A stretch of 64,000 nt of DNA from Bdellovibrionales bacterium (lineage in GTDB: Bacteria; Bdellovibrionota; Bdellovibrionia; Bdellovibrionales; JAUICD01). The stretch lies in NCBI GenBank assembly GCA_965203875.1, contig OZ241914.1, forward strand, positions 1,358,039 through 1,422,038, in the 5' to 3' direction. Under the pieces are notes generated by a model, which searched no databases, had not been told where the DNA came from, and saw only the letters and a list, made by a program, of their open reading frames with translations. Below, piece after piece: positions 9,110 to 63,061 of the stretch; positions within the stretch are counted from its first letter, which is position 1, and each line of letters starts with the position of its first letter. The translations under genes and the position numbers were made by a program.

Positions 9110-9152
9110 GCATAATCCATACAGCCAACCAAGTTATTTATCAAATACAAAA

Positions 9153-9578
9153 TTACCGCTTAGAGTATTGGAATCTCTTTCTGGCACCACGCAGACCGTA
9201 TTTTTTACGCTCCACCATTCTGGCATCTCTGGTTAAAAAACCCATTTTTTTGAACTCACCTCTAAGCTCAGGATCTAGCTCCACCAACGCTCTAGAAAGA
9301 CCATGTCTTATAGCACCAGCCTGCCCAGATTCACCGCCCCCAGATACTGTTATTTTTATATCCACCTTACCCATCAGCTTAGACAACATCAAAGGCTCCA
9401 GAGCCTGGTACACCGAAGTTTTTCTCTTTAAATATTGATCCATAGGTTTTTTATTAACGGTCATAGAACCTGGATTATTTTTTAGAAACACTCTGGCAGA
9501 ACTGGTCTTCCTCCTACCAGTTGCGTAATAAGTTTTGGTAGTTTCTTTTGATGTCTGTGTAGTCTTTCTAGTAGTCAT
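9153..9578 (-). CDS. rpsI: 30S ribosomal protein S9
   Basis: [16 protein letters not shown] ... [18 protein letters not shown], the canonical S9 C-terminus. Confidence 0.95.
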
Positions 9579-9582
9579 AACT

Positions 9583-10026
9583 CTATCCTAAAATAGCCGG
9601 CTTCTGTGCTTTGTGAGGATGTTCGCTATCAGCGTACACCTTTAGTTTTTTAAAAATCATATTGGCAAGCTTATTTTTAGGTAACATGCCTTTGACAGCT
9701 TTATACACCACTTGCTCTGGCTTTGTATCCAAAAATCTTCCTGCACTTTTTTGCTTTACACTACCTACATACCTAGAACTAGTGTAATAAATTTTGTTTT
9801 TTAACTTTTGACCCGTAAGCTTTACTTTACTGGCATTTATTACAACAACAAAATCCCCTGTGTCTACATGAGGAGTATAAGTAGGCTTATCCTTTCCTCT
9901 TAAAACATTGGAAACTTTGGTAGCAAGTCTACCCAAAGTTTGACCACTGGCATCCACCAAGTACCACTTTCGCTTGTTTATGTACTCAGAAGCCCTTGCA
10001 CTATAAGTTTTAAAATTACTCATCAA
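9583..10026 (-). CDS. rplM: 50S ribosomal protein L13
   Basis: [19 protein letters not shown]..., in the conserved rplM-rpsI pair. Confidence 0.95.
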
Positions 10027-13496: not shown

Positions 13497-13697
13497 TAAT
13501 TTCAGCATGCAACAAAGATAGGTGTAGAGCTGGGGTTTGGTGTATCAGTAGCTATAAACAGCAGCTGTTGGAGCTTACCTTGGACGTTGCACAACATTTT
13601 ATCAAACAATAGCTTAGCTTCACTAAGACCTTTGGTCTGAACATTACGCCAGCTATTATTTGATAAAATTGAAAACCTTTATGATTGAAGACCTTTA
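13497..13697 (-). repeat. SR-1 structured intergenic repeat (one unit plus an extra left flank), minus orientation, abutting the mutase stop codon
   Basis: The reverse complement reads TAAaggtcttcaatcat-aaaggttttcaatttt-atcaaataatagct-[core with agacc-aaa-ggtct]-agctattgtttgat-aaaatgttgtgcaacgtccaagg. The TAA is the stop of 13695..15233. Boundaries are approximate. Confidence 0.8.
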
Positions 13698-21893: not shown

Positions 21894-22140
21894 AGGTCTT
21901 CAATTAATAAGGCCCTTCGTTTTTGAATTAAAGGTCTTCAATTCTATCAAATACTTGCTAGTGTAGTGGAAAGACCGGAGGTCTTGTAGCGGAACTAGGC
22001 AAGGATTTGATAGAATGTTGCCCAACGTTCAAGGTATATTACGAAAGCTTTTGTTCATAGCAGAAAGATCAGGCCGAAAGTGGAGCCAAGGGGCATTTAT
22101 TAAAAAAGCCAAAGCAACGTTCAAAGTATATTCCAAACAA
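21891..22140 (+). repeat. SR-1 structured intergenic repeat array (partial flank plus two units), starting on the ankyrin gene's TAA stop
   Basis: TAAaggtcttcaatt at 21891. A full unit spans 21930-22048 (aaaggtcttcaatt / ctatcaaatacttgc / core with aagacc-gga-ggtctt / gcaaggatttgataga / atgttgcccaacgttcaaggtatatt). A second, flank-less unit runs to about 22140. Confidence 0.85.
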
Positions 22141-30169: not shown

Positions 30170-30246
30170 TGGTGATTCGGCCAGGACTCGAACCTGGAAC
30201 CCTCTGCTTAGAAGGCAGATGCTCTATCCAATTGAGCTACCGAACC
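30170..30246 (-). tRNA. tRNA-Arg (anticodon TCT)
   Basis: The reverse complement is ggttcggtagctcaattggatagagcatctgccttctaagcagagggttccaggttcgagtcctggccgaatcacca. It forms a cloverleaf with a 7-bp acceptor stem, anticodon loop CT-TCT-AA, T-loop TTCGAGT and an encoded CCA. Confidence 0.95.
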
Positions 30247-42484: not shown

Positions 42485-42722
42485 AGGTTTTCAATTTTTA
42501 ATAAGTGTACATAGCGAAACGGCCCGACTGTAGGTCAAAGTGTAGCTATGTATACTTATTAAAAATGTTTACCAGCTCTCAAGGTATACTCCAAAATATT
42601 TGCTAAAGGTCTTCAATTTTATCTAATATTTGATTAGCAAAGCGGTAAGCCAGAAAGCTTAAAGCGTAGCTAAGAAAATATTTGATAAAAAGTTGTGCAA
42701 CGTTCAAGGTATATTCCAAAAG
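42482..42722 (+). repeat. SR-1 structured intergenic repeat, two tandem units, starting on the activator's TAA stop
   Basis: Unit 1 (42482-42596): TAAaggttttcaattttt / aataagtgtacatagc / core / gctatgtatacttatt / aaaaatgtttaccagctctcaaggtatactcc. Unit 2 (42604-42722): aaaggtcttcaatttt / atctaatatttgattagc / core with taagc-cagaaa-gctta / gctaagaaaatatttgat / aaaaagttgtgcaacgttcaaggtatattcc. Confidence 0.9.
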
Positions 42723-42752
42723 ATTCACATAAAGCCTTTAAAATTCTCATCT

Positions 42753-49405: not shown

Positions 49406-50221
49406 ATGCCCTTGGGTTTGGATGAAAAGTTGGCCGGAACGTCCCAATTTTTATTATCTAAAACCAAATACAGGCCCAAGATTGCTCTGGTTCTAGGTTC
49501 TGGGTTTGGCTCCTTTAATTTGGATAAATCTGTAAGTATTAAGTTTAAAGATATTCCGCATTTTATCCCTACCAGTGTTGAGGGCCATCCAGGTGAGTTA
49601 GTTTTTGGCCTGTTAGATGAAGTAGAATTTTTAGTCTTAAGAGGCAGGCTTCACCTTTATGAAGGATATAGTGTGGATAAAGTAGTCTATCCTATTAGGA
49701 CACTAGCAACATTAGGTATTAACAGGTTAATCCTTTCTAATGCTGCTGGAGGAATTAATCCTTTGCTGAAGAAATCGGATTTTATGGTCATTGTAGATCA
49801 TATAAATTTAACCGGCACAAACCCGCTCGTCGGTAAAAAAGACGGAGTTAAATTTTTGGACATGACTTATGCTTATGATCCTTCGTTAACCAAAAAGCTG
49901 GAGGATTCTTTAAGTGATTTGAATTTGGGATATCAAAAAGGTGTTTATTGTGGTGTTTTAGGTCCTAGTTATGAAACACCTTCTGAGGTAAAACTTTTAA
50001 AGATTATAGGTGCGGATGCGGTTGGAATGAGCACAGTAAATGAATGTATAGCTGCCAACGAAATGGGTTTAAAGGTAGCTGGAATTAGTTGCATTACCAA
50101 TGCTGCCCCAGGCACTACAAAAGAAATACTTAGCCATGAAGATGTATGTAAGGTGAGTCAATCTATATCTAGTAATTTTGATAAATTAATAAGAACTTTT
50201 GTCAAAAAGATAAACCATTGA
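49406..50221 (+). CDS. Purine nucleoside phosphorylase (trimeric PunA-type)
   Basis: GPSYETPSEVKLLKIIGADAVGMSTVNE, 271 aa. Confidence 0.88.
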   Translation: MPLGLDEKLAGTSQFLLSKTKYRPKIALVLGSGFGSFNLDKSVSIKFKDIPHFIPTSVEGHPGELVFGLLDEVEFLVLRGRLHLYEGYSVDKVVYPIRTLATLGINRLILSNAAGGINPLLKKSDFMVIVDHINLTGTNPLVGKKDGVKFLDMTYAYDPSLTKKLEDSLSDLNLGYQKGVYCGVLGPSYETPSEVKLLKIIGADAVGMSTVNECIAANEMGLKVAGISCITNAAPGTTKEILSHEDVCKVSQSISSNFDKLIRTFVKKINH

Positions 50222-50227
50222 TATATG

Positions 50228-51343
50228 CTATCTTGTAAATTGTTTTTTTGCCAGTGTGATGGCCTCTTGTTTAGTACTAATTTTACAGTTTAATTGTGCT
50301 TTCCTTATATAAGTTAGAACTTCTGCAAATTTTGTATTTGATATAGGGAGTGCCTTTAGGTCATCACCGTTTATCAACGGTTGTTCATAAGGATATTTTT
50401 TTTTAATTTCAGTTAGTAATTCTATTTCTTTTATTCTGTTTTCTGATTTTAAAATGTCTATTAAGCTGCTGTACCAATCTGTCAAAACTAGATTTCTTAA
50501 TGTGTATAATTCCTCATTTAACAAATCTTTGTTAGCACCATTGCAAAGCTCATCTATAGTTTTTTTTATTTTTTTTGAATTACAAAAATACTCTTTTATA
50601 ACACCTCTTCTAAGTAAAATGGCAAGCCTGGCTTCCAGATCACCCGATAATTTTACATCGTTTTTGACAAAGTCTTCCGGTATTAATGCTGATAGAGTTT
50701 TAATACCTTGTTCTGCCTTATTGGACATGATTATTTTGTGAAATTCTTGTTCGAATCTTTCCTTACTAACGTTTTTGATTTCTTTATTTAAAGTTTTTAT
50801 TGCCTTAAATGTTTCTTCTTCAATTTTCCAGTTCAGTTGACAGCTAAACCTTATTGCTCTGAGTATTCTTAGTTTATCTTCTGTAAATCTTTCTATAGGA
50901 TCACCTACAGCTCTTATTATTTTTTTTTGTATATCCTGAATGCCACCTACGTGATCGATTACTTTATTGTTTGTAAGATCAAAGAATAGAGCGTTGCAGG
51001 TAAAATCTCTCCTTAATGCATCAGATTTGGGGTCGCCAAATTCTATTCTGGATGGATGTCTGCCATCATAGTTGTAGTCTTTTCTGAAAGTTGTTATTTC
51101 GTAGGGGATACTGTTTAGCTTGACCGTTATTGTGCCAAAGCTTTTTCCTATGTTGGATGTATGCTCAAAGATATTTTCTACTTCGTCAGGTTTGGCGTTG
51201 GTTGCAAAATCGATGTCGTATGGTTGTCTGTTGATTATGGTATCTCTTACACATCCTCCTGCCAGATATACTATAAAGTTATTTTCTGTTAATTTTTTGT
51301 GAATGTAGTGCGTATTATCTTTATGTTGTGAAGGCAAGTTCAT
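50228..51343 (-). CDS. cca: CCA-adding tRNA nucleotidyltransferase / poly(A) polymerase family
   Basis: YLAGGCVRDTIINRQPYDIDFAT head-domain motif and RDFTCNALF. Confidence 0.85.
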   Translation of the reverse strand: MNLPSQHKDNTHYIHKKLTENNFIVYLAGGCVRDTIINRQPYDIDFATNAKPDEVENIFEHTSNIGKSFGTITVKLNSIPYEITTFRKDYNYDGRHPSRIEFGDPKSDALRRDFTCNALFFDLTNNKVIDHVGGIQDIQKKIIRAVGDPIERFTEDKLRILRAIRFSCQLNWKIEEETFKAIKTLNKEIKNVSKERFEQEFHKIIMSNKAEQGIKTLSALIPEDFVKNDVKLSGDLEARLAILLRRGVIKEYFCNSKKIKKTIDELCNGANKDLLNEELYTLRNLVLTDWYSSLIDILKSENRIKEIELLTEIKKKYPYEQPLINGDDLKALPISNTKFAEVLTYIRKAQLNCKISTKQEAITLAKKQFTR

Positions 51344-52203
51344 AAATACCTTCGATATAGTTCTGGCAATTTTTTTAAGGATTCTAAATCTACTATGTCT
51401 TTAGTTTTTTCTAGAAGATTATTCATAACATTTAATCTTAAAAGTGCATATGCTTCTTTTTGAATTTTATCTGAGGTGTACCGTTTAAAATTTTTAGATA
51501 CGTTCGATATGATGTAGCTAACTACCTCATCTATGCCTTTTTTTAAAACCGTGGATGTTTCAAAAACTCTTACAGTTTTCTTGGTTGAGATTCCTGTAAG
51601 CTCATTTTTTAACAATGATGCACCTTCTCTATCTGACTTATTTACTATAAAAAAAGAGGCTATCTCCATCAGCCCTGCTTTCATAGCTTGAATACTGTCT
51701 CCACTTTCAGGCGTCAATACAACACCTACGCTGTCTGCAGCATACATGATTTCCCATTCTGTCTGACCTACCCCGACTGTCTCTACAAACACTATGTCAA
51801 AACCTGCACAGTCAAATGCACGAAGAAGTAAATAGCTTATGGCACAAATGCCACCTATATCTCCTCTGGTACCTATCGACCTTACGAATACGTTTTTATG
51901 ATCTTTATACCTAATCCTATCTCCTAGCACTGCTCCGTTTGAAAAAGGACTGGTAGGATCTATTGCCAGCACACCTACTTTAAATTTATCCAAGTGAGGT
52001 AGGAAGCAATTTATTAAACTAGATTTTCCACTGCCAGGAGGGCCGGTAATGCCCAGCCTAAATGCATTGTGCTTGGGTTTTAATAAATACTGTGAATTAA
52101 GTACCTCAGGACCTGTGTTTTCAATGAATGTCAAAAGTTTAGAAAATGTTCTTTGATCCTTGTAGGCTCCTTTACATAGCAAATCTAAAGCTTTTAACAT
52201 CAC
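51340..52203 (-). CDS. meaB: Methylmalonyl-CoA mutase-associated G-protein chaperone (MeaB/ArgK)
   Basis: GITGPPGSGKSSLI (P-loop), VETVGVGQ and NKSD. Confidence 0.88.
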   Translation of the reverse strand: MMLKALDLLCKGAYKDQRTFSKLLTFIENTGPEVLNSQYLLKPKHNAFRLGITGPPGSGKSSLINCFLPHLDKFKVGVLAIDPTSPFSNGAVLGDRIRYKDHKNVFVRSIGTRGDIGGICAISYLLLRAFDCAGFDIVFVETVGVGQTEWEIMYAADSVGVVLTPESGDSIQAMKAGLMEIASFFIVNKSDREGASLLKNELTGISTKKTVRVFETSTVLKKGIDEVVSYIISNVSKNFKRYTSDKIQKEAYALLRLNVMNNLLEKTKDIVDLESLKKLPELYRRYL

Positions 52204-52381
52204 GGAATAATACCACGAAGCCTGTAAAAAGCCTAGGTATCTAACACTACAGAATTTAACAAGTATTCCGATCTTAGATTCAGGACGTAAGGCCTGTTGA
52301 GAAAATTTTGGCTTTATATGATCCTGTTATTGGTGAGGAGTTTAATGGTCGGCCTACTTAGGTTGTATTTGTCGGTTAAGT

Positions 52382-53521
52382 ATGTTTTCTAACAAGCAAA
52401 AATTAGTTTTTATTGTGGTAACAGCCTTGGTTGTTGGTGTGATTGGTATGATTTTTTCTAGCGGAAGAGATAAAGAAGAATATGACGACAAAAGATATTT
52501 AGGAGCCTTAGGTAAAAGAACAAATAGAGATAATACTGTTTGGTTAAATAAAGCTATCTCATTTAAAAAAACAACCAGAGAAACAGAGCCTGAAATTATC
52601 GAAGAACAACCAGAACTTAAGCCAGAACCTAAAAAAAAAGAAGCTAAGAAAGATAAGAAAAAAGCAAAAAAAAATGCCAAGAAAAAAGACGCTGAAAAGA
52701 AAGGGCCAGTAATGGTAAGAATGGGTGGTGGTCCGGTAGGTGAGGGTGCACAATCTCAGGACAACACAGGTGCAGTGGCTAATGAGGATTCTCCAGCCAA
52801 TAATCCTGTTCCAGCTGCTCCCTATGCTGCAACAGGAGGTGGTATTATGGATCCTGCTGCCACAGACAACTCCATGGGTTTTGGTAATCCGACCAACAAT
52901 CCGGATTATTGGACTAGCGTATTGATGGATTCACCATCATTAAGTAATTTGGAAAAATTAGTAGATGCATACAGATCCAACAGTATATCCGATGCCACTT
53001 TTTATTCGGTAGTATCGAACATGTTAGAAGATGACAATAGGCTTGTCAGACACTACGGGCTTTTGAGTTTATCCAGAACCCCAAGTGCAAGAAGCTTTAG
53101 AGAACTGGTAGAATTTAAAAATAATTCTCAGTATGAGGGTGCAACCAGTAAAGTAGATAGATCTCTAAAGTTATACACTCTATATAGACATGCCAACGTG
53201 GTGAACACAGTACTAGAAGATGAAGATGCTAATGTAAAATTGGAGGCTATAAAAATTGGAAAAGAGTCGGCCGAAAGAAGCCTGGCATCTGTAGATGATA
53301 CTTCTAAACCGGAAGAAGAACCAGAGTCTGTAGATAATATGGGAAGACCTGTAAGAGAACTTAGCAGCGTGAAAGCAGCTATAGATCCTGCCATATACGA
53401 AGAAATTGCGATTAAGATAGAAAGCATTTCTAGATCAGAACAGGATACACAAATTATAAACTCTGCTCAGGATGCACACAGCTCAATCAACAAATTGTTA
53501 GAGCAATACAAGGAAGAATAA
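52382..53521 (+). CDS. Hypothetical membrane-anchored protein with a Lys-rich low-complexity region
   Basis: N-terminal TM helix (LVFIVVTALVVGVIGMIF) and a KKKEAKKDKKKAKKNAKKK tract. The C-terminal half is possibly helical-repeat. Confidence 0.5.
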   Translation: MFSNKQKLVFIVVTALVVGVIGMIFSSGRDKEEYDDKRYLGALGKRTNRDNTVWLNKAISFKKTTRETEPEIIEEQPELKPEPKKKEAKKDKKKAKKNAKKKDAEKKGPVMVRMGGGPVGEGAQSQDNTGAVANEDSPANNPVPAAPYAATGGGIMDPAATDNSMGFGNPTNNPDYWTSVLMDSPSLSNLEKLVDAYRSNSISDATFYSVVSNMLEDDNRLVRHYGLLSLSRTPSARSFRELVEFKNNSQYEGATSKVDRSLKLYTLYRHANVVNTVLEDEDANVKLEAIKIGKESAERSLASVDDTSKPEEEPESVDNMGRPVRELSSVKAAIDPAIYEEIAIKIESISRSEQDTQIINSAQDAHSSINKLLEQYKEE

Positions 53522-53600
53522 AAGTCTTCATTTTCAAATGACTCGAAGGCTCCGCTTCAAGTCTCACACTCATCTTTGTTGCATATGAGGTATCAGTTTT
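53519..53600 (+). repeat. Degenerate SR-1-like fragment starting on the TAA stop of 52382..53521
   Basis: TAAaagtcttcatttt... The tail ...catctttgttgcat also occurs at the distal end of the 13.5-kb copy. Weakly conserved. Confidence 0.5.
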
Positions 53601-53631
53601 TTTAAGGCTTCCAGGTTGAAACAAAGCCATC

Positions 53632-54387
53632 TTAGTCTTTCACTTTTACGATTGGTATAATACTTGAAAGACAGTCTTTTCTTCTGATTATACTAAGCAA
53701 AGTAATTGGCAGCACTCCTGTTATGGTCATAACCAGGCACCTAAAAAATACTCTGATTGGATAAAACATGCTACTTCGGTGTTTAGTGTATCCAAGTTTC
53801 ATATCCACAGCCCACTCACCTAAAGTGCAAAATGTTACACTTCTAGAAAGTACAAGGTAAAACATGGAGATTGAAACAAACAAAACGGCCATCATCCCCT
53901 GTGTCATAGGATCAGACATAATGTTTGTGGAAAACACGCTGGTATTTAAATCTGTCACAACAAAAAGTGCAACAGACGCTGTAAGAAACAACCCGGACAC
54001 AATAAAAAAATCAAACAATAGTGCAACCAGACTGTGGCAACTTTTGACCTCAACTACTTTGTTAGTTTCCTCTGCTGTAGGCTGTTTAGATTCTTCAGTC
54101 GTGGTATCAAATTGAATGAGCGGATTTTTTAAAGCTGGAACATAACGGCCCGGCCTGTTTTTAACACCCACACCTGCTTTGCCTATACCAGGTAAATTAT
54201 CAGGTAAATCTTGATCCATATAATCTTCTTTAGTGCCAAAAGGATTAGACTCAGAATCTGGCATACTCAAAGCCAGCTTTTTATCAACAAAGCCGGCTTT
54301 TTTGACCTCCGAATCCAGATCAACCTTTTTCTTATGAAACCCCAAACCTTCGGATAAAGGCTTGAGCTTAAAATCCTCAAAATCCAT
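53632..54387 (-). CDS. Hypothetical membrane protein (3 hydrophobic helices in the C-terminal half)
   Basis: 251 aa with a charged N-terminal half followed by three TM-like segments. Possibly RDD-like, but not confirmed. Confidence 0.5.
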   Translation of the reverse strand: MDFEDFKLKPLSEGLGFHKKKVDLDSEVKKAGFVDKKLALSMPDSESNPFGTKEDYMDQDLPDNLPGIGKAGVGVKNRPGRYVPALKNPLIQFDTTTEESKQPTAEETNKVVEVKSCHSLVALLFDFFIVSGLFLTASVALFVVTDLNTSVFSTNIMSDPMTQGMMAVLFVSISMFYLVLSRSVTFCTLGEWAVDMKLGYTKHRSSMFYPIRVFFRCLVMTITGVLPITLLSIIRRKDCLSSIIPIVKVKD

Positions 54388-54630
54388 GAGAATAATATAG
54401 ACACCTTTGGTATCAAATAAAAGCTAAATTTACTTTGGCCAAAAATCCCAAAATAACGCTATTTGTTATTTCTATGTTTGGTGGCAGGTGGTGTTGTTTT
54501 TTATAAAGAAAATATAAATTAAAAGAAATAGTAAAAATAATGTGGACATGTGTATTTTTTTTAGTTAGTTTCCGACCGCTATTCGGGCATTTATCCGTGG
54601 CATTTTATCCGCATTTAGGAGGTATAGTTT

Positions 54631-55515
54631 ATGAGGATGTTTGTATCAACAGTATTTGTGTTTTGTTTTCTGGCGTTAAGTGTAAATGCCCAGGATGCAG
54701 CAGAAGGAATGGAGCCGGCAGCTCAAGAGTCGGCAGGTATGGATTCTGGTGGAGATTCTGAAGGGTTATTTAGTGGTACCCTCATAGACTACTGGGTTGA
54801 ATTGCCGAGGTCAAACTCACTTGAGACAGACAATGTTCAAGGACGCCACGGTATTCACAGAAATCCAGGTTACTTTTTGACTCTTCGTCCATATCGTACG
54901 CTAGATGACGGATCTAAGCTTGCTTTAGCTATGCAGCTTTTAAACGATGGTGACTACATAGTGGATGATCCTTACTTGATGTATAGCAGAAACCTATTAC
55001 AGGCAGGATCATTGAATTTGAGCGGTTATTTAAGGTATTACATCCCTGTTTCTCACGATGCTTTGGCCAATGACAGGATCTCTTATTTGAGAGCACTTGT
55101 AAGTGCTAAGTTTACTACTCCTGCTGATGGCGTGATGGTCGGTTTGAATGCTGAGCTAAGACATTATGCGTACAATGGTGATGGTACTAGAGCTGAAGGT
55201 GAGGCAGATACTCGTGACAATCATCGGTTGACCTTGTATGGCTCAATATCTGGATCAGTTGGTCCATTTTCGTTTTACACTTGGCATGGTCTAAGATTTA
55301 GAAGTACGAAAGCTGCCGATGGTCATGACCAGCATTATGCTTACAATGAAACTCTCTTGCTAACTGACATAGGCGATACTGGTTACAAAGCTGGTATAGG
55401 TGCGGTTGAGTACAGACCTATAATGGACAGTGCTGATTTAAGAGGTGAAGGTCAGAACTTCTTGTACAACAAAAATTACACCAACTATGTTCTGAACTTT
55501 AACGGTTCGTTCTAA
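54631..55515 (+). CDS. Putative outer-membrane beta-barrel protein
   Basis: Signal peptide (FCFLALSVNA/QD), alternating aromatic/Gly-rich strands and a C-terminal ...NFNGSF with terminal Phe. AGGAGG RBS. Confidence 0.55.
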   Translation: MRMFVSTVFVFCFLALSVNAQDAAEGMEPAAQESAGMDSGGDSEGLFSGTLIDYWVELPRSNSLETDNVQGRHGIHRNPGYFLTLRPYRTLDDGSKLALAMQLLNDGDYIVDDPYLMYSRNLLQAGSLNLSGYLRYYIPVSHDALANDRISYLRALVSAKFTTPADGVMVGLNAELRHYAYNGDGTRAEGEADTRDNHRLTLYGSISGSVGPFSFYTWHGLRFRSTKAADGHDQHYAYNETLLLTDIGDTGYKAGIGAVEYRPIMDSADLRGEGQNFLYNKNYTNYVLNFNGSF

Positions 55516-55538
55516 TACAAAATTGAAATTCTGTTATG

Positions 55539-55593
55539 ATGGCTAAAAGGTTACCACCTTTTAGCCATTGTGCTATTTCCCTATTTTTATTTT
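55539..55593 (+). terminator. Intrinsic terminator of the OMP gene
   Basis: Perfect 12-bp stem atggctaaaagg / ccttttagccat with a 6-nt loop, followed by a T-rich tract (ctatttttatttt). Confidence 0.75.
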
Positions 55594-55671
55594 GCTGATT
55601 TTTGTGGCCTGTGGTGTTACTTTCTAAGGTCGGTGTTATTTCGTAGCTTATTTAAGTATACTGGTTAGATA

Positions 55672-55764
55672 GGAGGGGTGGGTGAGTGGTTTAAACCAGC
55701 AGTTTGCTAAATTGTCGTACGGATTATATCCGTACCGAGAGTTCGAATCTCTCCCCCTCCGCCA
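55672..55764 (+). tRNA. tRNA-Ser (anticodon GCT)
   Basis: Perfect acceptor stem GGAGGGG/CCCCTCC, anticodon loop TT-GCT-AA, a long variable arm (gtacggat-tata-atccgtac), T-arm GAGAG-TTCGAAT-CTCTC and an encoded CCA. Confidence 0.95.
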
Positions 55765-55800
55765 CATACCCACAAAGTAGTGTGGCATAAAACTATTTTT
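55759..55800 (+). repeat. 42-bp direct repeat, left copy (last 6 nt of tRNA-Ser plus downstream hairpin/T-run)
   Basis: ccgccacatacccacaaagtagtgtggcataaaactattttt is identical to 57745-57786. Confidence 0.95.
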
Positions 55801-55912
55801 ATCCAAACATACCAAGCTTTCAGACTAGTATTTTGCCAAACATCCTGTTCTCATGAATAGTTTTTATCTTAAGTATTAAAGACAACAAGTAGTTTGACCG
55901 TAACGAGGTAAT

Positions 55913-57237
55913 ATGAGAAAGGGACTTCGTAAAAAAATTGAAGATGCCAAGAAAATGCATTCCCAAAAAATACAGAGTAACCGAATTTACCTTGGGGACA
56001 ACTTAGAGATAATGAAATCCCTCGAAAGTGGTAAAATCGATCTGATCTATATCGACCCTCCATTTTGTGCTCAAAATGTTTTGGAATCAAAAGCCTGGGG
56101 TAAAAAAATATCCTTTAATGACAAATGGGGAGGTGGTATCCATTCCTATATCAAATGGCTTGTCCCTAGACTTCGTCAGTGTCACCGGCTTTTAAAAGAT
56201 GTCGGAATTTTTGTTTTGCATTTGGATTGGAGAAGTGTTCACTATGCCCGGGTTGAACTTGATAAAATTTTTGGAGACAAACAATTCTTAAACCAAATAA
56301 TATGGCAATACAAAACTGGAGGAAATTCAAAAAAATTTTTTGCAAGAAAGCATGATGTTTTGTTGATATACTCTAAATCGAATAAGTGGATATATAATGT
56401 ACAAAAAGAAAAATCTTATACAAAGGCAAAAAATAGGCAGGCAGGTATTGTAAACCTAGGTCAAGGAGAAGCAGAATTTTTTGAAGATAAAAATGGAGTT
56501 TTCAGTTGGATTAATATGAGAGATGTTTGGGACATTCCTTATATCAATTCTCAAGCACGAGAAAGACTTGGTTATCCGACGCAAAAACCATTGGCATTGC
56601 TTGAAAGAATAGTAACAGCATTTACAAACGAAGGAAATATTGTTGCCGATTTTTTCTGCGGCTGCGGTACAACTCTAGATGCAGCTCAAAATCTCAGTCG
56701 CAAATGGTTGGGTGCTGATATTTCTCCAGACGCTATTGCTGTTATTAAAGGGAGGATGCTTAGAGAACACAATATTAAAGTTGAAGTTGTCGATACAAAC
56801 CAGCTTACTAGGGAGGAAATCTATAAGCTAAAGCCTCTTGAATTTGAAAAGAAGATGGTGGAAATGCTAGGAGGAACGCCTAATACCAAACAGACTGGGG
56901 ACAGGGGTATCGACGGCTGGACGCACGATCACAGACCTATACAGGTGAAGATGTCCAAAAATGTAGGAAGACCTGTCATCGATAATTTTATAAAAATGTA
57001 AAACAAGGCAACGGGAAGGGAGTTATTATTGCCATGAGTTTTTCAAGAACGGCTCATGAGGAAGTTGCTAAACTTGCAAACGAAGAAGGATTGGAAATCG
57101 GTCTTATACCAAGTGACGATCTTATCAGGGATGCAGGAAATACCTCCAAAAGCAAACCTGAAAAAGCATTAGAAAGATCAAGAAAAGTCGTACCTAAAAG
57201 AAAGGACAGAAGAAAAAAGACGACAAAGTCGTCTTAG
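55913..57237 (+). pseudogene. Beta-class N6A/N4C DNA methyltransferase fused to an Mrr-like (PD-(D/E)xK) nuclease domain, split by a frameshift at A5 (56992-56996)
   Basis: DLIYIDPPF (motif IV) lies upstream of FFCGCGTT (motif I), which is the beta-class order. The C-terminus reads GDRGIDGW...IQVKMSKNVGRPVIDNFIKM*. The +1 frame continues KNVKQGNGKGVIIAMSFSRTAHEE..., which is open from 56986. One extra A restores a single 441-aa ORF. Confidence 0.75.
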
Positions 57238-57476
57238 GCTTTTGGAATAAGCGGGATAACATTTTCAGGAAAATAGAATTTGTAATAATCTTTGATTAGC
57301 CGTTCTCTTTCCTGCATTAATTCGTCCAACTCCTCTTCGTAAAGATCAAGCTTACCTTCATTGAAAAGCTCAATGGCATCTGAAATTTCGTCCATTTCTC
57401 TAGCTATTTGTTGGATATCCATCTGGGGTTTTATAAGCCAGAATGGCCTATGTATGTCAAATAACTTAACCTGCAA
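57234..57476 (-). CDS. Small acidic hypothetical protein inside the islet
   Basis: 80-aa ORF with helical/acidic composition. No family recognised. Confidence 0.35.
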   Translation of the reverse strand: MQVKLFDIHRPFWLIKPQMDIQQIAREMDEISDAIELFNEGKLDLYEEELDELMQERERLIKDYYKFYFPENVIPLIPKA

Positions 57477-57744
57477 TGACGCATACTACTGATATTCTGC
57501 TCATAAACCAAAAATTGCCATCTAGCAACGTGGCAAAAGCAAGCTTGATCAACTTTTCTTGCTTTAGTCTATCTCTTCTGATCCTTGCTACCAGTGACCA
57601 TGTTTCTTATGAAAAAAATTCACTAGGAAAACAAGATACTAAAGCCACTCTCATATCTTGGCCCCCCAGAGCCTATAGTGCAGTCCATTGAATGGTGGAC
57701 AACCTTACCTGTTGAAGTGTGTACCGTAAGACAATAGCTTGTGG

Positions 57745-57786
57745 CCGCCACATACCCACAAAGTAGTGTGGCATAAAACTATTTTT
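57745..57786 (+). repeat. 42-bp direct repeat, right copy
   Basis: Identical to 55759-55800 and lies 47 bp upstream of tRNA-Arg(ACG). Confidence 0.95.
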
Positions 57787-57833
57787 TGTGTAATTCTAAG
57801 TATTATTAATGTGGTTTAAGTGAAGTGTGCATT

Positions 57834-57910
57834 GCGCTCGTAGCTCAGTTGGATAGAGCTCCAGACTACGAATCTGGCGGTCGCATGTTCGAATCGTGCC
57901 GGGCGCACCA
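57834..57910 (+). tRNA. tRNA-Arg (anticodon ACG)
   Basis: gcgctcgtagctcagttggatagagctccagactacgaatctggcggtcgcatgttcgaatcgtgccgggcgcacca, with anticodon loop CT-ACG-AA, T-loop TTCGAAT and an encoded CCA. Confidence 0.95.
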
Positions 57911-57919
57911 AGTTTTATT

Positions 57920-59032
57920 ATGAGTAGTATTTCGCTAGTATTATCTGCTGGAGGAGCTAGAGGGGCGTATCAAGTTGGCGTTCTAAAAGCTTTAAAAGAA
58001 CTGTATTCGGGCAAGCGTATTCCTTTTGATGTTTTATGTGGCGTAAGCTCCGGTTCTATAAACACCGCAGCTTTAGCTTCACATGCCGATAACTTTGAAC
58101 ATGCAATAGATACACTTGAAGCAGTTTGGACCAATGTAACCTCAAGCAACGTTTTTAGAACCGACATACGAACGGTAAGTAGTATTGGCATGAAATGGCT
58201 TAAAGATCTTTCTTTGGGCGGTATTACTGGAGGCGGCTCCCCTAAGTCTCTGCTAGATACAGATCCTTTACAAAAACTTCTGGCTAAACACATACCAATA
58301 CACAGAATAAAGCAGAACGTAGACGCTGGGTATTTGAGAGCACTAACCGTAACCGCAACAAACTATTATACATCAAATGCAGTGACATTTGTTCAAGCTA
58401 AAAAAGATGTTCCGATGTGGAGGCGTACAAGGAGGATGGGTGAACACGCTGACATTGGTTTAGAGCATCTTATGGCTTCTTCATCCATCCCCATCTTTTT
58501 TCCTAGTGTCCAGATAGATGGACGGCATTTTGGAGACGGGTGTATTAGAAACACATGGCCCTTAAGCCCTGCTATCTACCTTGGTGCAAAAAAAATCCTA
58601 GCTGTTGGGGTTAGAAAAAGAACTTATGTTACAGAATCTAAAGATAAAAAACCCACACCTTCTGTAGCACACATTGCAGGTGTAATTTTAAATGCCGTTC
58701 TGTTAGATTCCATAGAGATAGACATAGTCAGAATGGATAAAATCAATCATGTTGTTAAACGCCTTCAGGATCAGTCAAAAAAATACCGACATATTGAGCA
58801 TCTTTGGATAAGCCCTTCTGAGGACATAGGTGAATTAGCCTTATCTTACTATAAAAAACTACCTAGAGTTATACGCTACCTACTTAAAGGATTAGGTCCT
58901 GATAAGCAAGTTACAGACATCGTAAGTTTTTTACTATTTGATCCTACCTATTGTAAAAAATTAATTGAACTTGGTTACAAAGATACAAAAGAGCGTTCTG
59001 GACAGATAATCCAGTTTCTAAAAACTGTTTGA
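57920..59032 (+). CDS. Patatin-like phospholipase
   Basis: LSAGGARGAY (oxyanion GGxRG), GVSSGS (GxSxG) and FGDGCIRN (catalytic Asp). The start is moved to the ATG at 57920, because the ORF-track start at 57896 lies inside the tRNA. Confidence 0.88.
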   Translation: MSSISLVLSAGGARGAYQVGVLKALKELYSGKRIPFDVLCGVSSGSINTAALASHADNFEHAIDTLEAVWTNVTSSNVFRTDIRTVSSIGMKWLKDLSLGGITGGGSPKSLLDTDPLQKLLAKHIPIHRIKQNVDAGYLRALTVTATNYYTSNAVTFVQAKKDVPMWRRTRRMGEHADIGLEHLMASSSIPIFFPSVQIDGRHFGDGCIRNTWPLSPAIYLGAKKILAVGVRKRTYVTESKDKKPTPSVAHIAGVILNAVLLDSIEIDIVRMDKINHVVKRLQDQSKKYRHIEHLWISPSEDIGELALSYYKKLPRVIRYLLKGLGPDKQVTDIVSFLLFDPTYCKKLIELGYKDTKERSGQIIQFLKTV

Positions 59033-59079
59033 CTTTATTGTGCTACGTGTTGCAAGGTACGAGAAATCCGGGGTTTTGA

Positions 59080-59460
59080 GTGTCTGAGAACAATGGCAAG
59101 TACATAACTGTTTGTTTTGTGATAGGTAGCGGCTGTGTTGCCTACGTTGCCAAAATATTGTTGGATGCACTTGCTTCAACTTGGGGCCTAGCTGCTAGGT
59201 ATGTTCAAGGTGATCTTGTCATACATGGTGTTCCTGTAGCTGTAGGTTTGATTTGTTTTATGGTTTTGCAGTTTAACCCCAGAACTGTTAAGTGGGCTGA
59301 CGAGATAATTGTAGAGGTTAAAAAAATCGTGTGGCCATCTAGAAGAGATACTGTGGCGACCAGTATAGTTGTGACATTTATGTTGATAATATCTGGCATA
59401 CTGTTAGGGGCATTTGATCTGGTCTCCAATTATTTAGTGAAATACATAATAGAGATGTAA
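59080..59460 (+). CDS. secE: Preprotein translocase subunit SecE
   Basis: 126 aa with 3 TM segments and a conserved ..[19 protein letters not shown].. block, positioned upstream of nusG. Confidence 0.85.
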
Positions 59461-59489
59461 AAGACTATAGAGATAAGGCAGAGAAAATT

Positions 59490-60059
59490 ATGAAGCAAAA
59501 AGAAAAAAAGCAAAGTTCTACTAAAAAGAAGTGGTATGTTGTGCACACTCAATCTGGATGTGAAGCTAAGGCAAAAGCTTCTATTGAGTTAAGAATTGCA
59601 CAGAACAATTTACAAGATAAATTTGGCGAAGTACTTGTGCCTTCTGAAAATGTCGTTGAGCTTGTTAAGAATCAAAAACAGACTAAGTCTAGGAAATTCT
59701 TTCCTGGCTATATCTTTGTTGAGATGGATTTAAATGAAGAAACTTGGCATTTGGTCAGAGGTTCTAATAAGGTAACTGGTTTTGTGGGTAAATCTGGTGG
59801 TGTAAGCAAACCTACTTCCATATCTGACAAGGAAGTGCAGAGAGTGACAAAGCAAATAGAAGTAGGAGCTACTAAGCCTAGACCAAAAATTACATTTCAA
59901 GAAGGAGATTCTGTCGTGGTTGTAGACGGGCCTTTTAATAACTTCAACGGAACCGTGGAAGATGTGAATGCTGAAAAAGGGAAAGTGAAGGTTTTGGTTA
60001 GCATATTTGGTAGACCTACACCAGTTGAGTTGGATTTCATACAAGTAGAAAAGACTTAA
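59490..60059 (+). CDS. nusG: Transcription termination/antitermination factor NusG
   Basis: [17 protein letters not shown]..., FPGYIFVEM and a KOW motif ([21 protein letters not shown]). Confidence 0.93.
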
Positions 60060-60069
60060 AGGAGTTTGT

Positions 60070-60498
60070 ATGGCAAAAAAAGTAAAGGGGTTTATTAAAC
60101 TACAAATTCCTGGAGGCAAAGCTAATCCTGCTCCGCCTGTTGGTCCGGCGTTGGGTCAGCACGGCGTTAACATAATGGATTTTTGTAAAGCATTTAACGA
60201 TAAAACTAAATCTCAAATGGACATGATAACTCCCGTAGTAATAACTGTTTATGAAGATAGAACTTTTACGTTTATCACTAAAACACCTCCTGCATCTGTT
60301 TTGATCAAGAAAGCACTTAATCTTGCTAGTGGATCAAAGATGCCACAGAAAGATAAAGTAGCTAAAATATCGATGGATGTTGTTAAAGGCATTGCAGAAA
60401 AAAAGTTGCCTGATTTAAACTGTCTGTCCGTTGAATCTGCAATATCGCAGGTGATAGGCACGGCAAAAAGTATGGGTATTGAGTTAGAAGGAAGTTAA
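60070..60498 (+). CDS. rplK: 50S ribosomal protein L11
   Basis: [35 protein letters not shown]. Confidence 0.96.
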
Positions 60499-60499
60499 T

Positions 60500-61186
60500 G
60501 TGAAAAAGTCAGGCGGTAAGAGAATAAGGAATTTGAAAAGCAAGTTGGAGTATAAGCCTCATCCTGTGGCCAAAGCTTTGGACATCGTTTTATCTTCGTC
60601 TAATACTAAATTTGATGAGTCTATAGATGTTGCTGTTCGTTTGGGTATAGATGTGAAAAATCCAGAGCATCAAGCCAGAGGTTCTGCTATTTTGCCGCAC
60701 GGTTTGGGCAAAAATATAAAATTATTGGTGATTGCTAAAGGTGAGAAAGTTTTGGAGGCTAAGAACGCTGGAGCTGATCATGTGGGTTCTGACGACATGA
60801 TTGATAAGATTAAAAATTCCTGGCTTGATTTTGATAAAATAATCGCAACTCCGGATATGATGGCATCTGTATCCAAGGTGGCTAAGATATTGGGACCTAA
60901 GGGTCTTATGCCAAACCCGAAAGTTGGTACCGTAACTTTTGATTTAGAAAAGACTATTAAGGCGGAAAAAAAGGGAAAGTTAAGTTTTAAATCTGACAAA
61001 TCTGGGATAGTGCATGGAGCGTTTGGAAAAAAGAGTATGGGTAAGGAAGCTCTGGAAGAAAATTTGCTTAGCTTCTTGGGTACTCTTCATAGAGGAAAAC
61101 CTTCTAATAGCAAGGGTGTGTACTTTAAGTCGGTAACTTTATCTTCTACAATGGGCCCTGGTGTACCTGTCGAGTATAAAGGTTAA
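60500..61186 (+). CDS. rplA: 50S ribosomal protein L1
   Basis: 228 aa with FDESIDVAVRLGID and GPKGLMPNPKVGTVT. Confidence 0.95.
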   Translation: MKKSGGKRIRNLKSKLEYKPHPVAKALDIVLSSSNTKFDESIDVAVRLGIDVKNPEHQARGSAILPHGLGKNIKLLVIAKGEKVLEAKNAGADHVGSDDMIDKIKNSWLDFDKIIATPDMMASVSKVAKILGPKGLMPNPKVGTVTFDLEKTIKAEKKGKLSFKSDKSGIVHGAFGKKSMGKEALEENLLSFLGTLHRGKPSNSKGVYFKSVTLSSTMGPGVPVEYKG

Positions 61187-61292
61187 AGATCTTCAATTTT
61201 ATCAAATGTTTGATTAGTGCAGCGGCAAGCCGTAAGGCCTAGAGCGTAGCTAGGAGAATATTAGAGCGCAGCTCTCAAGGTAGATTATAAAA
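61184..61292 (+). repeat. SR-1 unit (partly decayed) starting on the rplA TAA stop
   Basis: TAAagatcttcaatttt / atcaaatgtttgattag / core with gcc-gtaa-ggc ...agagcgtagc / decayed 3' arm / cagctctcaaggtagatt. Confidence 0.8.
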
Positions 61293-62714: not shown

Positions 62715-63061
62715 AAGGTCTAATCAAGAATTTGACAAAAGAAAACCCTTAGGGCATCTTTTTAGAATATACTTTGAGAACTGGTAAACATTTTATCAAA
62801 CAATAGCCTAGCTTCACTTTCGGCCTTTGGCCTTTCGCTACGCTTTAAGACAATGCTTTTATAGTGTACCTTGAACGAACGTTGCTTTGGCACTTTTAAT
62901 AAGCACACACTAGCTCCACTTTGACCTACGGTCGGGTCGTTATGCTCTGAACAAAAGCTTTCGGAATATACTTTGAACGTTGCACAAGGCCACAGCCTTT
63001 CAGAGCAGCAAAGCCACTCTTGCAGGCTGCGGCTCAAGGGCCTGATAATTGAAAACCCTTA
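62715..63061 (-). repeat. SR-1 array (about 3 units, rearranged), minus orientation, downstream of hsp20
   Basis: The reverse complement contains aagggttttcaatt..., three right flanks (caacgttcaaagtatattcc, caacgttcgttcaaggtacac, cagttctcaaagtatattc) and cores with gacc..ggtc and ggcc-aaa-ggcc. Confidence 0.8.

What the first reader, a model, noticed from the sequence alone, without database searches (positions are those of the whole stretch)
55759..57786. Integrase-less 2-kb islet at tRNA-Ser(GCT) bounded by 42-bp direct repeats that include the tRNA 3' end
The 42-mer ccgccacatacccacaaagtagtgtggcataaaactattttt occurs at 55759-55800, where its first 6 nt are the 3' end of the tRNA. It occurs again, identically, at 57745-57786.

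This attL/attR-like geometry is what tRNA-targeting integrative elements leave behind. The 1944 bp between the copies encode only a broken methyltransferase-nuclease gene and an 80-aa ORF. My reading of 57477-57744 in all frames found no recombinase remnant.

It is likely a decayed or trans-mobilised islet. The repeat also contains the tRNA's terminator-like hairpin, so a duplication of the terminator region is the alternative explanation.
Basis: partly seen in the sequence, partly recalled or inferred. Interest (0 to 1): 0.55.

Follow-up and report, generated by a model that had tools for sequence, protein, structure and literature searches.

The report
Repeat-flanked restriction-modification islet beside tRNA-Ser
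A 2-kb stretch between two tRNA genes, bracketed by an exact 42-base repeat, is a horizontally mobile two-gene DNA-methylase/nuclease module with no recombinase of its own, and closely related strains carry a very different version of the gene in the same slot; this is a familiar pattern for restriction-modification genes, not a new kind of element.

Summary
An exact 42-mer lies at 55759-55800 and 57745-57786. Its first 6 nt are the 3' end of tRNA-Ser(GCT), and 1944 bp lie between the copies.

The content is a conserved two-gene module, not debris:
- One gene fuses a beta-class N6-adenine methyltransferase to an Mrr-type nuclease and ends in a basic tail. It is interrupted only by a 1-nt deletion in a T-run, possibly an assembly error.
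- The other is a convergent 62-aa two-helix protein. The two stop codons overlap by 4 nt.

The same module occurs elsewhere as a low-GC islet in a 65-80% GC genome, so it is horizontally mobile.

Two conspecific assemblies have both repeats and nearly identical flanks (97-99%). Their methylase-nuclease gene body, however, is a different allele (37% aa identity). Sister species carry type I hsdM-hsdS directly 3' of the same tRNA-Ser.

I found no integrase, no recombinase remnant, no empty site and no other copy of the 42-mer.

The best reading is an old insertion of a restriction-modification (RM) module with a long target duplication, into the spacer between the two tRNA genes, followed by allelic substitution through homologous recombination. 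An att site served in trans by an integrase is not excluded. This is a new member of a known kind, of modest interest.

The parts
55672..55764 (+). tRNA-Ser(GCT), intact, with encoded CCA
   Evidence: ARAGORN; Rfam tRNA 54 bits
55759..55800 (+). Left copy of the 42-nt direct repeat: the last 6 nt of the tRNA plus 36 nt of trailer. Only 55759-55798 (40 nt) is shared with the conspecific strains. It contains the hairpin GCCACATAC/CCACAAA/GTAGTGTGGC.
55799..57103 (+). Strain-variable segment: the promoter region and most of the methylase-nuclease gene. It is replaced by a 44%-identical (effectively unrelated) 1396-bp segment in L001/L002.
   Evidence: Alignment A1; blastn breakpoints; per-segment identity
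55913..57237 (+). Single-chain methyltransferase-nuclease gene: PF01555 N6_N4_Mtase plus PF04471 Mrr_cat plus a basic tail. It reads as 362 aa plus 67 aa because of one frameshift, and as 441 aa once repaired.
   Evidence: Pfam 1e-46 and 2.6e-6; PDB relatives M.RsrI, CcrM, M.MboIIA; PADLOC MTase_II; repair
56986..56989 (+). Frameshift site. This T4 run should be T5; adding one T restores ...VIDNFYKNVKQGNGKG..., which matches the family consensus.
57104..57146 (+). Transition zone coding the family-conserved C-terminal motif (I/V)PSDD(L/I)IRD(A/S)G. It is 69-71% identical between the alleles and is the inferred right-hand recombination junction.
57147..57237 (+). Basic KRK-rich C-terminal tail, 99% identical between strains. 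Among 120 homologues it is present only in the genes that are linked to the small ORF.
57217..57235 (.). 8-bp hairpin AAGACGAC-ttt-GTCGTCTT at the convergent gene junction, terminator-like on the - strand
57234..57422 (-). Small partner gene of 62 aa from the ATG (80 aa if read from the TTG at 57476). The predicted fold is a two-helix hairpin. Its stop codon overlaps the methylase stop codon by 4 nt.
   Evidence: 10 representative homologues; conserved motifs; same linkage and the same 4-nt overlap in L128, and linkage in L127; AF2 pLDDT 80
57477..57744 (.). Non-coding stretch, 96-97% identical between strains. It holds no protein-family or RNA-family match and presumably carries the small gene's promoter.
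57745..57786 (+). Right copy of the direct repeat. In L001/L002 it has a G>T change that breaks a stem pair of the hairpin.
57787..57833 (+). 47-nt leader of tRNA-Arg. Joined to a single repeat copy it gives the predicted empty-site spacer of about 81-83 nt.
   Evidence: Sequence; inference
57834..57910 (+). tRNA-Arg(ACG)

Best explanation
The interval is a restriction-modification (RM) type gene slot in the spacer of a tRNA-Ser(GCT)/tRNA-Arg(ACG) pair.

A two-gene module entered it without any recombinase of its own. The module consists of a beta-class N6-adenine methyltransferase fused to an Mrr-type PD-(D/E)xK nuclease with a basic tail, and a convergent 62-aa helical-hairpin partner.

The 40-42-nt direct repeat is the duplicated target: the last 6 nt of tRNA-Ser plus the first 34-36 nt of its trailer. 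This is the 'insertion with long target duplication' geometry described for RM genes. It keeps the tRNA intact on the left and leaves a second trailer copy in front of tRNA-Arg.

The insertion predates the divergence of the three available strains. Since then the locus has behaved as a polymorphic slot. The gene body (55799-57103) has been exchanged for a 37%-identical allele by homologous recombination. That exchange is anchored on the left in tRNA-Ser plus the repeat, and on the right in the family-conserved SDDIIRD-coding motif, tail and small gene.

Shown: the repeat, the module and its horizontal mobility, the allele swap and its breakpoints, and the absence of a linked recombinase.

Inferred: that the repeat arose at insertion, the mechanism of insertion, and that the fusion protein acts as a self-contained RM enzyme regulated or assisted by the small protein.
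For: 1. The repeat is exact and unique, and it ends abruptly on both sides.
2. The cargo is RM-type only. Pfam finds N6_N4_Mtase plus Mrr_cat, with the nuclease motif GDRGIDG...IQVK present.
3. No recombinase was found anywhere I could look:
   - none in the precomputed Pfam annotations +-8 kb around the locus in the colinear contig L001;
   - no Tyr- or Ser-recombinase motifs in window ORFs (a crude test);
   - no remnant in 57420-57800.
4. The module is mobile as a unit. In L128 it is a 39-53% GC islet inside a 65-80% GC genome, with the same convergent 4-nt stop overlap, the same kind of tail, and no integrase or transposase nearby. In L127 the tailed methylase and the small gene are again linked.
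5. Conspecific strains keep both repeats. Identity to the window is 99.4% for the left flank, 99.4% for the tail plus small ORF and 99.3% for the tRNA-Arg side, but 44% at nucleotide level in the gene body. The two alleles are 37% identical at amino-acid level. The window allele is closer to genes in other organisms (55-60%) than to the conspecific allele.
6. Sister species have hsdM-hsdS starting 14 nt after the same tRNA-Ser. If that block is re-inverted, the order is again OMP, tRNA-Ser, RM genes, tRNA-Arg, so the slot is older than the species.
7. The literature describes the same pattern. Furuta et al. 2010 (PMC2853133) report RM units of all types, including orphan methylase genes and solitary nucleases, flanked by repeats longer than 30 bp with no mobility gene. 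Their examples include 46-bp repeats overlapping 2-15 bp of the 3' end of the adjacent gene. They also report frequent allelic substitution of RM genes at one locus.
Against: - No empty site with a single 42-mer was found, and that is the defining evidence for a target duplication. Only three conspecific genomes exist in the collections. The sister species have a rearranged locus with no sequence alignable to the 42-mer.
- The other two occurrences of the module (L127, L128) have no flanking direct repeats. A long duplication is therefore not a regular signature of this module's insertion.
- The two alleles share exactly the same left junction, at the inner edge of the repeat. Site-specific recombination predicts that outcome directly. 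My model has to explain it through exchange between genomes that already share the locus.
- The 42-mer has a 9-7-10 palindromic layout. This fits a recombinase core site as well as it fits a hairpin.
- Only 64 kb of this genome could be searched for further copies.
Confidence: 0.5

Rival explanations
1. The islet is a cis- or trans-mobilisable islet (CIME-like). The 42-mers are attL/attR of a tyrosine integrase encoded elsewhere, on a cognate island, a phage or the host chromosome, which targets the extreme 3' end of tRNA-Ser. The islet has lost its integrase or never had one.
For: - The direct repeats include the tRNA 3' end.
- The asymmetric 3' end of tRNA genes is a recognised integration sublocation (bioRxiv 10.1101/2020.11.02.365908).
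- CIMEs are defined as elements that kept attL/attR but lost their integration and transfer genes (PMC6323972).
- The two different cargo alleles share an identical left junction at the inner edge of the repeat.
- The repeat has a 9-7-10 inverted-arm layout like a recombinase core site.
Against: - Only 6 of the 42 nt are tRNA. The other 36 nt are trailer with no counterpart even in sister species, which would be an odd attP.
- All 3919 Islander islands have crossovers in the T-stem or anticodon region (PMC4383910).
- No integrase lies within +-8 kb and there is no third copy in the window.
- Neither half of the 42-mer occurs in IMG/VR, and its 20-nt core is absent from the JGI metagenomes.
- The right boundary of the swapped segment lies 640 bp inside the right repeat, not at it.
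- The same module elsewhere has no flanking repeats.
- All conspecific strains are occupied; none shows an empty site.
Confidence: 0.17
2. The repeat is unrelated to how the genes arrived. It is a local duplication or gene conversion of the tRNA-Ser trailer hairpin, kept as a transcription stop or processing signal in front of tRNA-Arg. The RM genes have occupied the tRNA-Ser 3' flank since before the repeat existed.
For: - The 42-mer folds into a hairpin (-10.4 kcal/mol, z = -3.2) followed by a T-run.
- Sister species also have RM genes 3' of tRNA-Ser but no repeat, so occupancy of the slot does not require the repeat.
- Both copies are retained in three strains.
Against: - The repeat includes 6 nt of the mature tRNA, which a terminator has no use for.
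- The consensus scan does not call it a terminator. The T-run is 9 nt from the stem.
- In L001/L002 the right copy carries a stem-breaking G>T change, so the hairpin there is not obviously under constraint.
- A duplication that happens to bracket exactly the foreign module is the pattern expected from insertion.
Confidence: 0.15
3. The islet arrived by Campbell-type integration. A circular copy of the module already carrying one 42-mer, excised from another strain by recombination between its repeats and taken up as DNA, recombined by RecA with the resident trailer. The repeat then acts as a portable homology patch and spreads the islet within the species.
For: - 40-42 bp of perfect identity is long enough for RecA-dependent recombination (established knowledge).
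- It explains the shared junctions between alleles and needs no recombinase.
Against: - It does not explain how the first repeat pair arose.
- No circle, empty site or single-repeat variant was seen.
- It is better viewed as a way of spreading after the primary event than as a true alternative.
Confidence: 0.1

Closest known systems
RM gene units inserted with a long target duplication (Nobusato et al. 2000, Gene 259:99; Furuta, Abe & Kobayashi 2010, NAR 38:2428, PMC2853133)
   Same: - Cargo is RM-type only, the insert is small (2 kb), and there is no transposase or integrase.
- The direct repeats exceed 30 bp, are unique in the sequence searched, and overlap the 3' end of the adjacent gene by a few bases.
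   Different: - No empty-site genome is available, so the duplication is inferred and not demonstrated.
- The methylase and nuclease functions are fused in one polypeptide with a small third partner, not carried by separate R and M genes.
- The target is a tRNA trailer.
Allelic or cassette-like substitution of RM genes at one locus (Furuta et al. 2010; Sibley & Raleigh 2004, as cited there)
   Same: Flanks are nearly identical between strains while the RM gene between them is unrelated at the DNA level. Sister species have a different RM type (type I M+S) at the same tRNA flank.
   Different: - Here the two alleles belong to the same protein family (37% identity).
- The right junction lies inside the gene, at a conserved C-terminal motif, so a shared tail and partner gene are retained.
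tRNA-gene genomic islands (Islander definition, PMC4383910) and RM-plus-integrase units in tRNA genes (Furuta et al. 2010, Fig. 3c-e)
   Same: Direct repeats mark an insert next to an intact tRNA gene, and one repeat copy includes the tRNA 3' end.
   Different: - There is no integrase.
- The 'displaced fragment' contains only 6 nt of tRNA.
- The crossover would be neither in the T-stem nor in the anticodon region.
CIMEs, cis-mobilisable elements (ICEberg 2.0, PMC6323972)
   Same: A small element without integration or transfer genes, bounded by repeats that could be attL/attR.
   Different: No cognate integrase-bearing element with the same site is known or was found. The site is mostly non-conserved trailer.
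Xer-dependent integrase-less elements (IMEX elements, and pdif modules of Acinetobacter plasmids); this comparison rests on my own knowledge and was not checked in a paper here
   Same: Small recombinase-less modules bounded by short palindromic sites with two arms and a 6-8 nt spacer. The 42-mer has a 9-7-10 layout.
   Different: - The 42-mer has no similarity to dif.
- The location is a tRNA spacer, not the replication terminus or a plasmid.
- The repeats are direct and 42 nt long.
- The same layout is explained by a plain hairpin.

Membership tests
[quoted passage not shown] 2010 criteria) | The inserted sequence contains R and M gene homologues and no other mobile-element genes | tested here: met
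   The methylase domain and the Mrr-type nuclease domain sit in one ORF, next to a 62-aa ORF. No mobility-gene family was found. The paper also accepts orphan methylase genes and solitary nucleases.
[quoted passage not shown] 2010 criteria) | Insert shorter than 20 kb, flanked by direct repeats longer than 30 bp | tested here: met
   1944 bp lie between 42-nt repeats (40 nt in the other strains).
[quoted passage not shown] 2010 criteria) | A related genome shows the empty site with a single copy of the repeat | tested here: inconclusive
   All three conspecific assemblies are occupied. Sister species have a rearranged locus with no homologous trailer. The 20-mer core is absent from the JGI metagenomes.
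[quoted passage not shown] 2010 criteria) | The repeat sequence is not a multi-copy element of the genome | tested here: inconclusive
   There are only two copies in the 64-kb window and none in other fetched loci or in IMG/VR. The rest of the genome was not available.
Allelic substitution of RM genes | Flanks are homologous between conspecific genomes while the RM region is not alignable or is highly diverged | tested here: met
   Flanks are 97-99% identical and the gene body 44% at nucleotide level; the two alleles are 37% identical at amino-acid level.
tRNA-gene integrative island (Islander) | A tyrosine integrase gene inside the island | tested here: not met
tRNA-gene integrative island (Islander) | A displaced tRNA-gene fragment at the far end, with the crossover in the T-stem or anticodon region | tested here: not met
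   The far copy shares only CCGCCA with the tRNA. There is no similarity upstream of it.
CIME (cis-mobilisable element) | attL/attR identical to the att sites of a cognate integrase-encoding element | not testable with these tools
   This needs the complete genomes or mobilome of this lineage. Exact-match scans of IMG/VR and the JGI metagenomes found nothing.
Transposon / IS / MITE | Terminal inverted repeats, a short target-site duplication, and a transposase (or multiple copies) | tested here: not met
   There are no inverted repeats at the inner edges of the direct repeats, no transposase, and only one copy in the window.
Beta-class N6-adenine DNA methyltransferase (PF01555) | An N-terminal DPPF/Y catalytic motif and a C-terminal FxGxG SAM-binding motif, with a score above the Pfam cut-off | tested here: met
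   IYIDPPF and FFCGCGT are present. The score is 160 bits against a cut-off of 26.7. The nearest solved relatives are M.RsrI, CcrM and M.MboIIA. The methylated base and the recognition site were not tested.
Mrr_cat PD-(D/E)xK nuclease domain (PF04471) | Score above the Pfam cut-off, with the D...(E/Q)xK residues present | tested here: met
   The repaired ORF and the L002 allele both score 28 bits against a cut-off of 21. GDRGIDG...PIQVK is present. Activity was not tested.

The most novel reading that the evidence does not exclude
The 42-mer would be the site of a recombinase encoded elsewhere in the host: two inverted arms of 9 and 10 nt around a 7-nt spacer, anchored on the tRNA-Ser CCA end. 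The interval would then be a dedicated cassette slot in which single-chain methylase-nuclease genes are exchanged site-specifically. That would be an integron-like or pdif-module-like system for defence genes at a tRNA trailer. The conserved right arm (basic tail, 62-aa protein and 268-nt non-coding stretch) would be the part required in cis.
Probability: 0.07. Interest if true: 0.75.

Novelty: new member of a known kind. Interest (0 to 1): 0.35.

Why it matters
This is a clean example, in an uncultivated Bdellovibrionales-like lineage, of two behaviours long described for restriction-modification genes. They sit in small recombinase-less islets flanked by long direct repeats, and strains swap very different alleles at one locus.

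It also defines an uncharacterised two-gene module. A beta-class methylase is fused to an Mrr nuclease with a basic tail, and it is paired with a 62-aa helical protein through a conserved 4-nt stop overlap. The module crosses between very different genomes, from about 37% to about 70% GC. The small partner is a candidate regulator or inhibitor of the nuclease and could be tested.

There is also a practical point. The 'pseudogene' call rests on one homopolymer base in a MAG assembly and should not be taken as decay.

Tried and rejected
Searches for the source genome and for an empty site:
- Exact-protein look-ups of the window's own patatin, methylase and P0121 failed, because the source contig is not indexed. 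The organism name was therefore not recovered. L003 is the same contig as L048, a 'MAG: Bdellovibrionales bacterium', which gives the clade.
- The search for related loci with the patatin protein in genome contigs returned nothing.
- The second genome-contig scan used the tRNA-Ser 3' 24-mer. It hit more than 119 loci, but almost all were other serine isoacceptors in unrelated phyla. It showed only that Ser(GCT)/Arg(ACG or GCG) adjacency occurs in several phyla.
- The 42-mer core was absent from the JGI metagenomes, and both halves were absent from IMG/VR.
- blastn of the islet against plasmids and phages gave no match.
- P0006/L005 is not syntenic, and the P0003 look-up failed.

Searches around the small ORF:
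- Context searches by pattern failed in the metagenomes and in IMG/VR.
- A Foldseek search of its model found nothing below E=1, as expected for a two-helix hairpin.
- Pfam, NCBIfam, PADLOC and PHROGs gave nothing for it.

Ideas rejected:
- The right repeat is not preceded by a decayed tRNA-Ser copy, which rules out a tandem tRNA duplication. No similarity was found.
- The 26-nt repeat flanking the module in L128 is not a target duplication. It is palindromic, sits just upstream of two promoters, and one copy lies 900 bp outside the low-GC islet.
- The window holds no silent second copy of either allele.
Full report
**1. The observation**

The 42-mer CCGCCACATACCCACAAAGTAGTGTGGCATAAAACTATTTTT is present exactly twice, at 55759-55800 and 57745-57786. 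No further copy appears even with three mismatches allowed, and none appeared in 100 shuffles. ARAGORN and Rfam place tRNA-Ser(GCT) at 55672-55764 and tRNA-Arg(ACG) at 57834-57910. The left copy therefore begins 6 nt inside the tRNA (CC, discriminator G, CCA), and 1944 bp separate the copies.

Local alignment of 200 nt on either side of each copy finds nothing above shuffled controls. The repeat has sharp ends, and the right copy is not preceded by a decayed tRNA. The 42-mer folds into a hairpin (GCCACATAC / 7-nt loop / GTAGTGTGGC; -10.4 kcal/mol, z = -3.2). The T-run lies 9 nt further on, and a consensus terminator scan does not call it.

**2. What lies between the copies**

ORF 55913-57001 is a PF01555 N6_N4 DNA methylase (9e-47) with the start of an Mrr_cat nuclease domain. 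The next frame continues that domain to 57237. Adding a single T to the T4 run at 56986-56989 yields one 441-aa ORF. Its local sequence ...VIDNFYKNVKQGNGKG... matches the family consensus, and the ORF aligns end to end with an intact homologue (P0122, 60% identity).

The repaired protein scores above the Pfam cut-offs for both domains. It carries the DPPF and FxGxG motifs in the beta-class order, and its nearest solved relatives are M.RsrI, CcrM and M.MboIIA. PADLOC files it with REBASE-derived type II methylases.

The contigs that carry the related copies look like low-coverage long-read assemblies, judging from names such as 'contig_1' and 'ctg..._7x_l'; this is my inference. One of them (L001) has its own private frameshift relative to its near-identical twin L002. 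So the word 'broken' rests on one homopolymer base and may be an assembly error.

On the other strand, 57234-57422 encodes a 62-aa protein (80 aa if read from an upstream TTG). It is acidic and is predicted with good confidence as a two-helix hairpin. Its stop codon overlaps the methylase stop codon by 4 nt. An exhaustive profile-free search of 1.84 billion representative proteins found only ten relatives, all 54-91 aa. They share the motifs FNxGEIDL and YYKxxFPxNV(V/I)PL.

The remaining 268 nt (57477-57744) have no protein-family match in any frame (Pfam and PHROGs, E<=1) and no RNA-family match.

**3. The module is a unit that moves between genomes**

Among the 120 best homologues of the methylase-nuclease, the protein normally ends at ...SDDIIRDA(A/S). 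Only one other listed protein (P0128) and the conspecific allele carry an extra basic tail of about 30 aa.

P0128 lies on contig L127, where the small-ORF homologue P0249 sits 0.9 kb downstream on the opposite strand.

The closest small-ORF homologue (P0248, 66% identity) lies on contig L128. Its convergent neighbour there is an intact 428-aa tailed methylase-nuclease, 60% identical to the window's. The 4-nt stop overlap is the same, and nucleotide identity to the window's module is 67-71%. In L128 the pair forms a segment of about 1.6 kb at 39-53% GC inside a 65-80% GC genome. It lies between housekeeping genes on the mnmE side and mnmG, with no integrase or transposase in 15 kb.

All three contexts that could be inspected therefore link a tailed methylase-nuclease to this small gene. 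The pair has clearly crossed between very different hosts. Neither L127 nor L128 has direct repeats at the module's edges.

**4. Comparison with the same species**

The patatin gene downstream of tRNA-Arg led to two other assemblies of the same species, L001 and L002. Identity to the window is as follows.

| Segment (window coordinates) | Identity to L001/L002 |
|---|---|
| 49998-55798, upstream flank through the 40 shared nt of the left repeat | 99.2% |
| 55799-57103, gene body | 44% (no real DNA homology) |
| 57104-57146, transition zone | 69-71% |
| 57147-57476, tail and small gene | 99.4% |
| 57477-57744, non-coding stretch | 96-97% |
| 57745-57786, right repeat | 97.6% |
| 57787-57930, leader and tRNA-Arg region | 99.3% |
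| 57104-61210 overall | 97.2% |

Both repeat copies are present in L001 and L002 (40 nt shared, with one G>T change in the right copy).

Those strains encode a different member of the same family between the repeats. It is 465 aa in L002, intact there, and 37% identical at amino-acid level. The window's allele is closer to genes in other organisms (55-60%) than to this conspecific allele.

The left breakpoint coincides with the inner edge of the left repeat. The right breakpoint lies in the codons for the family-wide C-terminal motif (I/V)PSDD(I/L)IRD, followed by the shared tail. Only these three genomes of the species exist in the collection. No genome with an unoccupied site was available.

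**5. Comparison with sister species**

Two contigs whose patatin is about 70% identical (L003, which is the same contig as L048, a 'MAG: Bdellovibrionales bacterium'; and L007) share several neighbours with the window: the outer-membrane-like gene upstream and patatin, with secE-nusG-rplKA also visible in L003. In both, tRNA-Ser(GCT) lies on the opposite strand and is followed after only 14 nt by hsdM-hsdS, a type I methylase and specificity subunit with no hsdR nearby. Re-inverting that block restores the order seen in the window: upstream gene, tRNA-Ser, RM genes, tRNA-Arg.

The 3' flank of this tRNA-Ser is therefore an RM slot in both lineages, and different RM types occupy it. Nothing alignable to the 42-mer trailer exists in these species, so they cannot serve as an empty-site reference. 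A third relative (L004) has no tRNAs at this position.

**6. Is a site-specific recombinase involved?**

I found no positive evidence for one.
- The precomputed Pfam annotation of 17 kb around the locus in L001 lists no integrase.
- A crude motif scan of all window ORFs of at least 120 aa finds no tyrosine- or serine-recombinase signatures.
- The non-coding stretch holds no remnant.
- Neither half of the 42-mer occurs in 2.9 million viral contigs, and its 20-nt core does not occur in the JGI metagenome contigs.
- The islet has no match in plasmid or phage records.

By the Islander definition, a tRNA-gene island has an integrase and a displaced tRNA-gene fragment, with crossovers in the T-stem or anticodon region (PMC4383910). 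Here the 'fragment' is 6 nt long.

The extreme 3' end is a recognised third sublocation. Integrase-less elements that keep their att sites exist (CIMEs; PMC6323972). The 42-mer's 9-7-10 inverted-arm layout would suit a core site. The two alleles share an identical left junction. I therefore keep this rival at about 0.17.

**7. Best explanation**

The pattern matches two behaviours catalogued for RM genes by Furuta, Abe and Kobayashi (PMC2853133). The first is insertion of RM-only units bounded by unique direct repeats longer than 30 bp; their examples include 46-bp repeats overlapping 2-15 bp of a neighbouring gene's 3' end, and units made of an orphan methylase gene or a solitary nuclease. 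The second is allelic substitution of unrelated RM genes between conserved flanks.

I conclude that a recombinase-less methylase-nuclease module was inserted into the tRNA-Ser/tRNA-Arg spacer, duplicating 40-42 nt of target. This happened before the three strains diverged. The gene body has since been exchanged by homologous recombination, using tRNA-Ser plus the repeat on one side and the conserved C-terminal motif, tail and partner gene on the other.

The weakest link is the missing empty site. Without it, the origin of the duplication at insertion is inference (confidence 0.5). A duplication unrelated to insertion (0.15) and RecA-mediated Campbell-type integration of a repeat-bearing circle (0.1) remain possible.

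How the protein works is also inferred. The methylase domain presumably supplies sequence recognition and self-protection. The Mrr-type domain presumably supplies cleavage. The small partner, tied to the tailed subfamily by the conserved stop overlap, presumably has a regulatory or inhibitory role.

**8. Verdict**

The finding is a new member of a known kind. What is new is the polymorphic slot and the uncharacterised two-gene module. Interest is 0.35.

Noticed in passing
L127 2896-6149 and L006 4125-7242: A three-gene block is shared by two otherwise unrelated contexts (GC 35% and 44%): a 131-aa ORF, a Radical SAM protein (84% aa identity) and the methylase-Mrr fusion. In L006 it splits the yajC...secDF neighbourhood. 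Homology ends exactly at the SDDIIRD C-terminal motif. It may be a larger defence unit that uses the same methylase-nuclease.
   Followed up: partly
L128 about 8050-9650; repeats at 7089-7114 and 9637-9662: The module is a 39-53% GC islet in a 65-80% GC genome. A palindromic 26-nt repeat (CCCTGTAAAATCAGG...) sits just upstream of the -35 boxes of two flanking promoters. It looks like an operator, not like a target duplication.
   Followed up: partly
L003 3169-4865; L007 2776-4502: In sister species the hsdM start codon lies only 14 nt after the CCA of tRNA-Ser(GCT). The type I methylase must therefore be co-transcribed with the tRNA. No hsdR gene is nearby.
   Followed up: partly
L003 4878-7502; L007 4889-6954: The genes next to tRNA-Arg are built from tandem 171-174-nt repeats, each encoding an HTH_Tnp_1-like unit. 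They are multi-HTH repeat proteins, not ordinary transposases.
   Followed up: no
L003 11431-13343; L004 4813-6152: Sister species carry a separate N6_N4 methylase followed by an ankyrin-repeat gene directly after rplA. L001, which is colinear with the window, has an unannotated 421-aa gene on the opposite strand at that position.
   Followed up: no
window about 62720-62980, 22023-22137, 42506-42725, 13593-13638: A dispersed intergenic repeat family of about 50-105 nt, 75-87% identical, in both orientations.
   Followed up: no
window 57896-57920: Public gene calls start the patatin-like gene at a GTG that overlaps tRNA-Arg (378 aa). The ATG at 57920, just after the tRNA, is the more likely start (370 aa).
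   Followed up: no
window 55759-55800 and 57745-57786: The repeat has two inverted arms of 9 and 10 nt around a 7-nt spacer. Both a hairpin terminator and a tyrosine-recombinase core site have this layout, so sequence alone cannot separate the two.
   Followed up: partly
window 30170-30246: There is a third tRNA gene, tRNA-Arg(TCT), on the minus strand. I did not examine its surroundings for islands.
   Followed up: no
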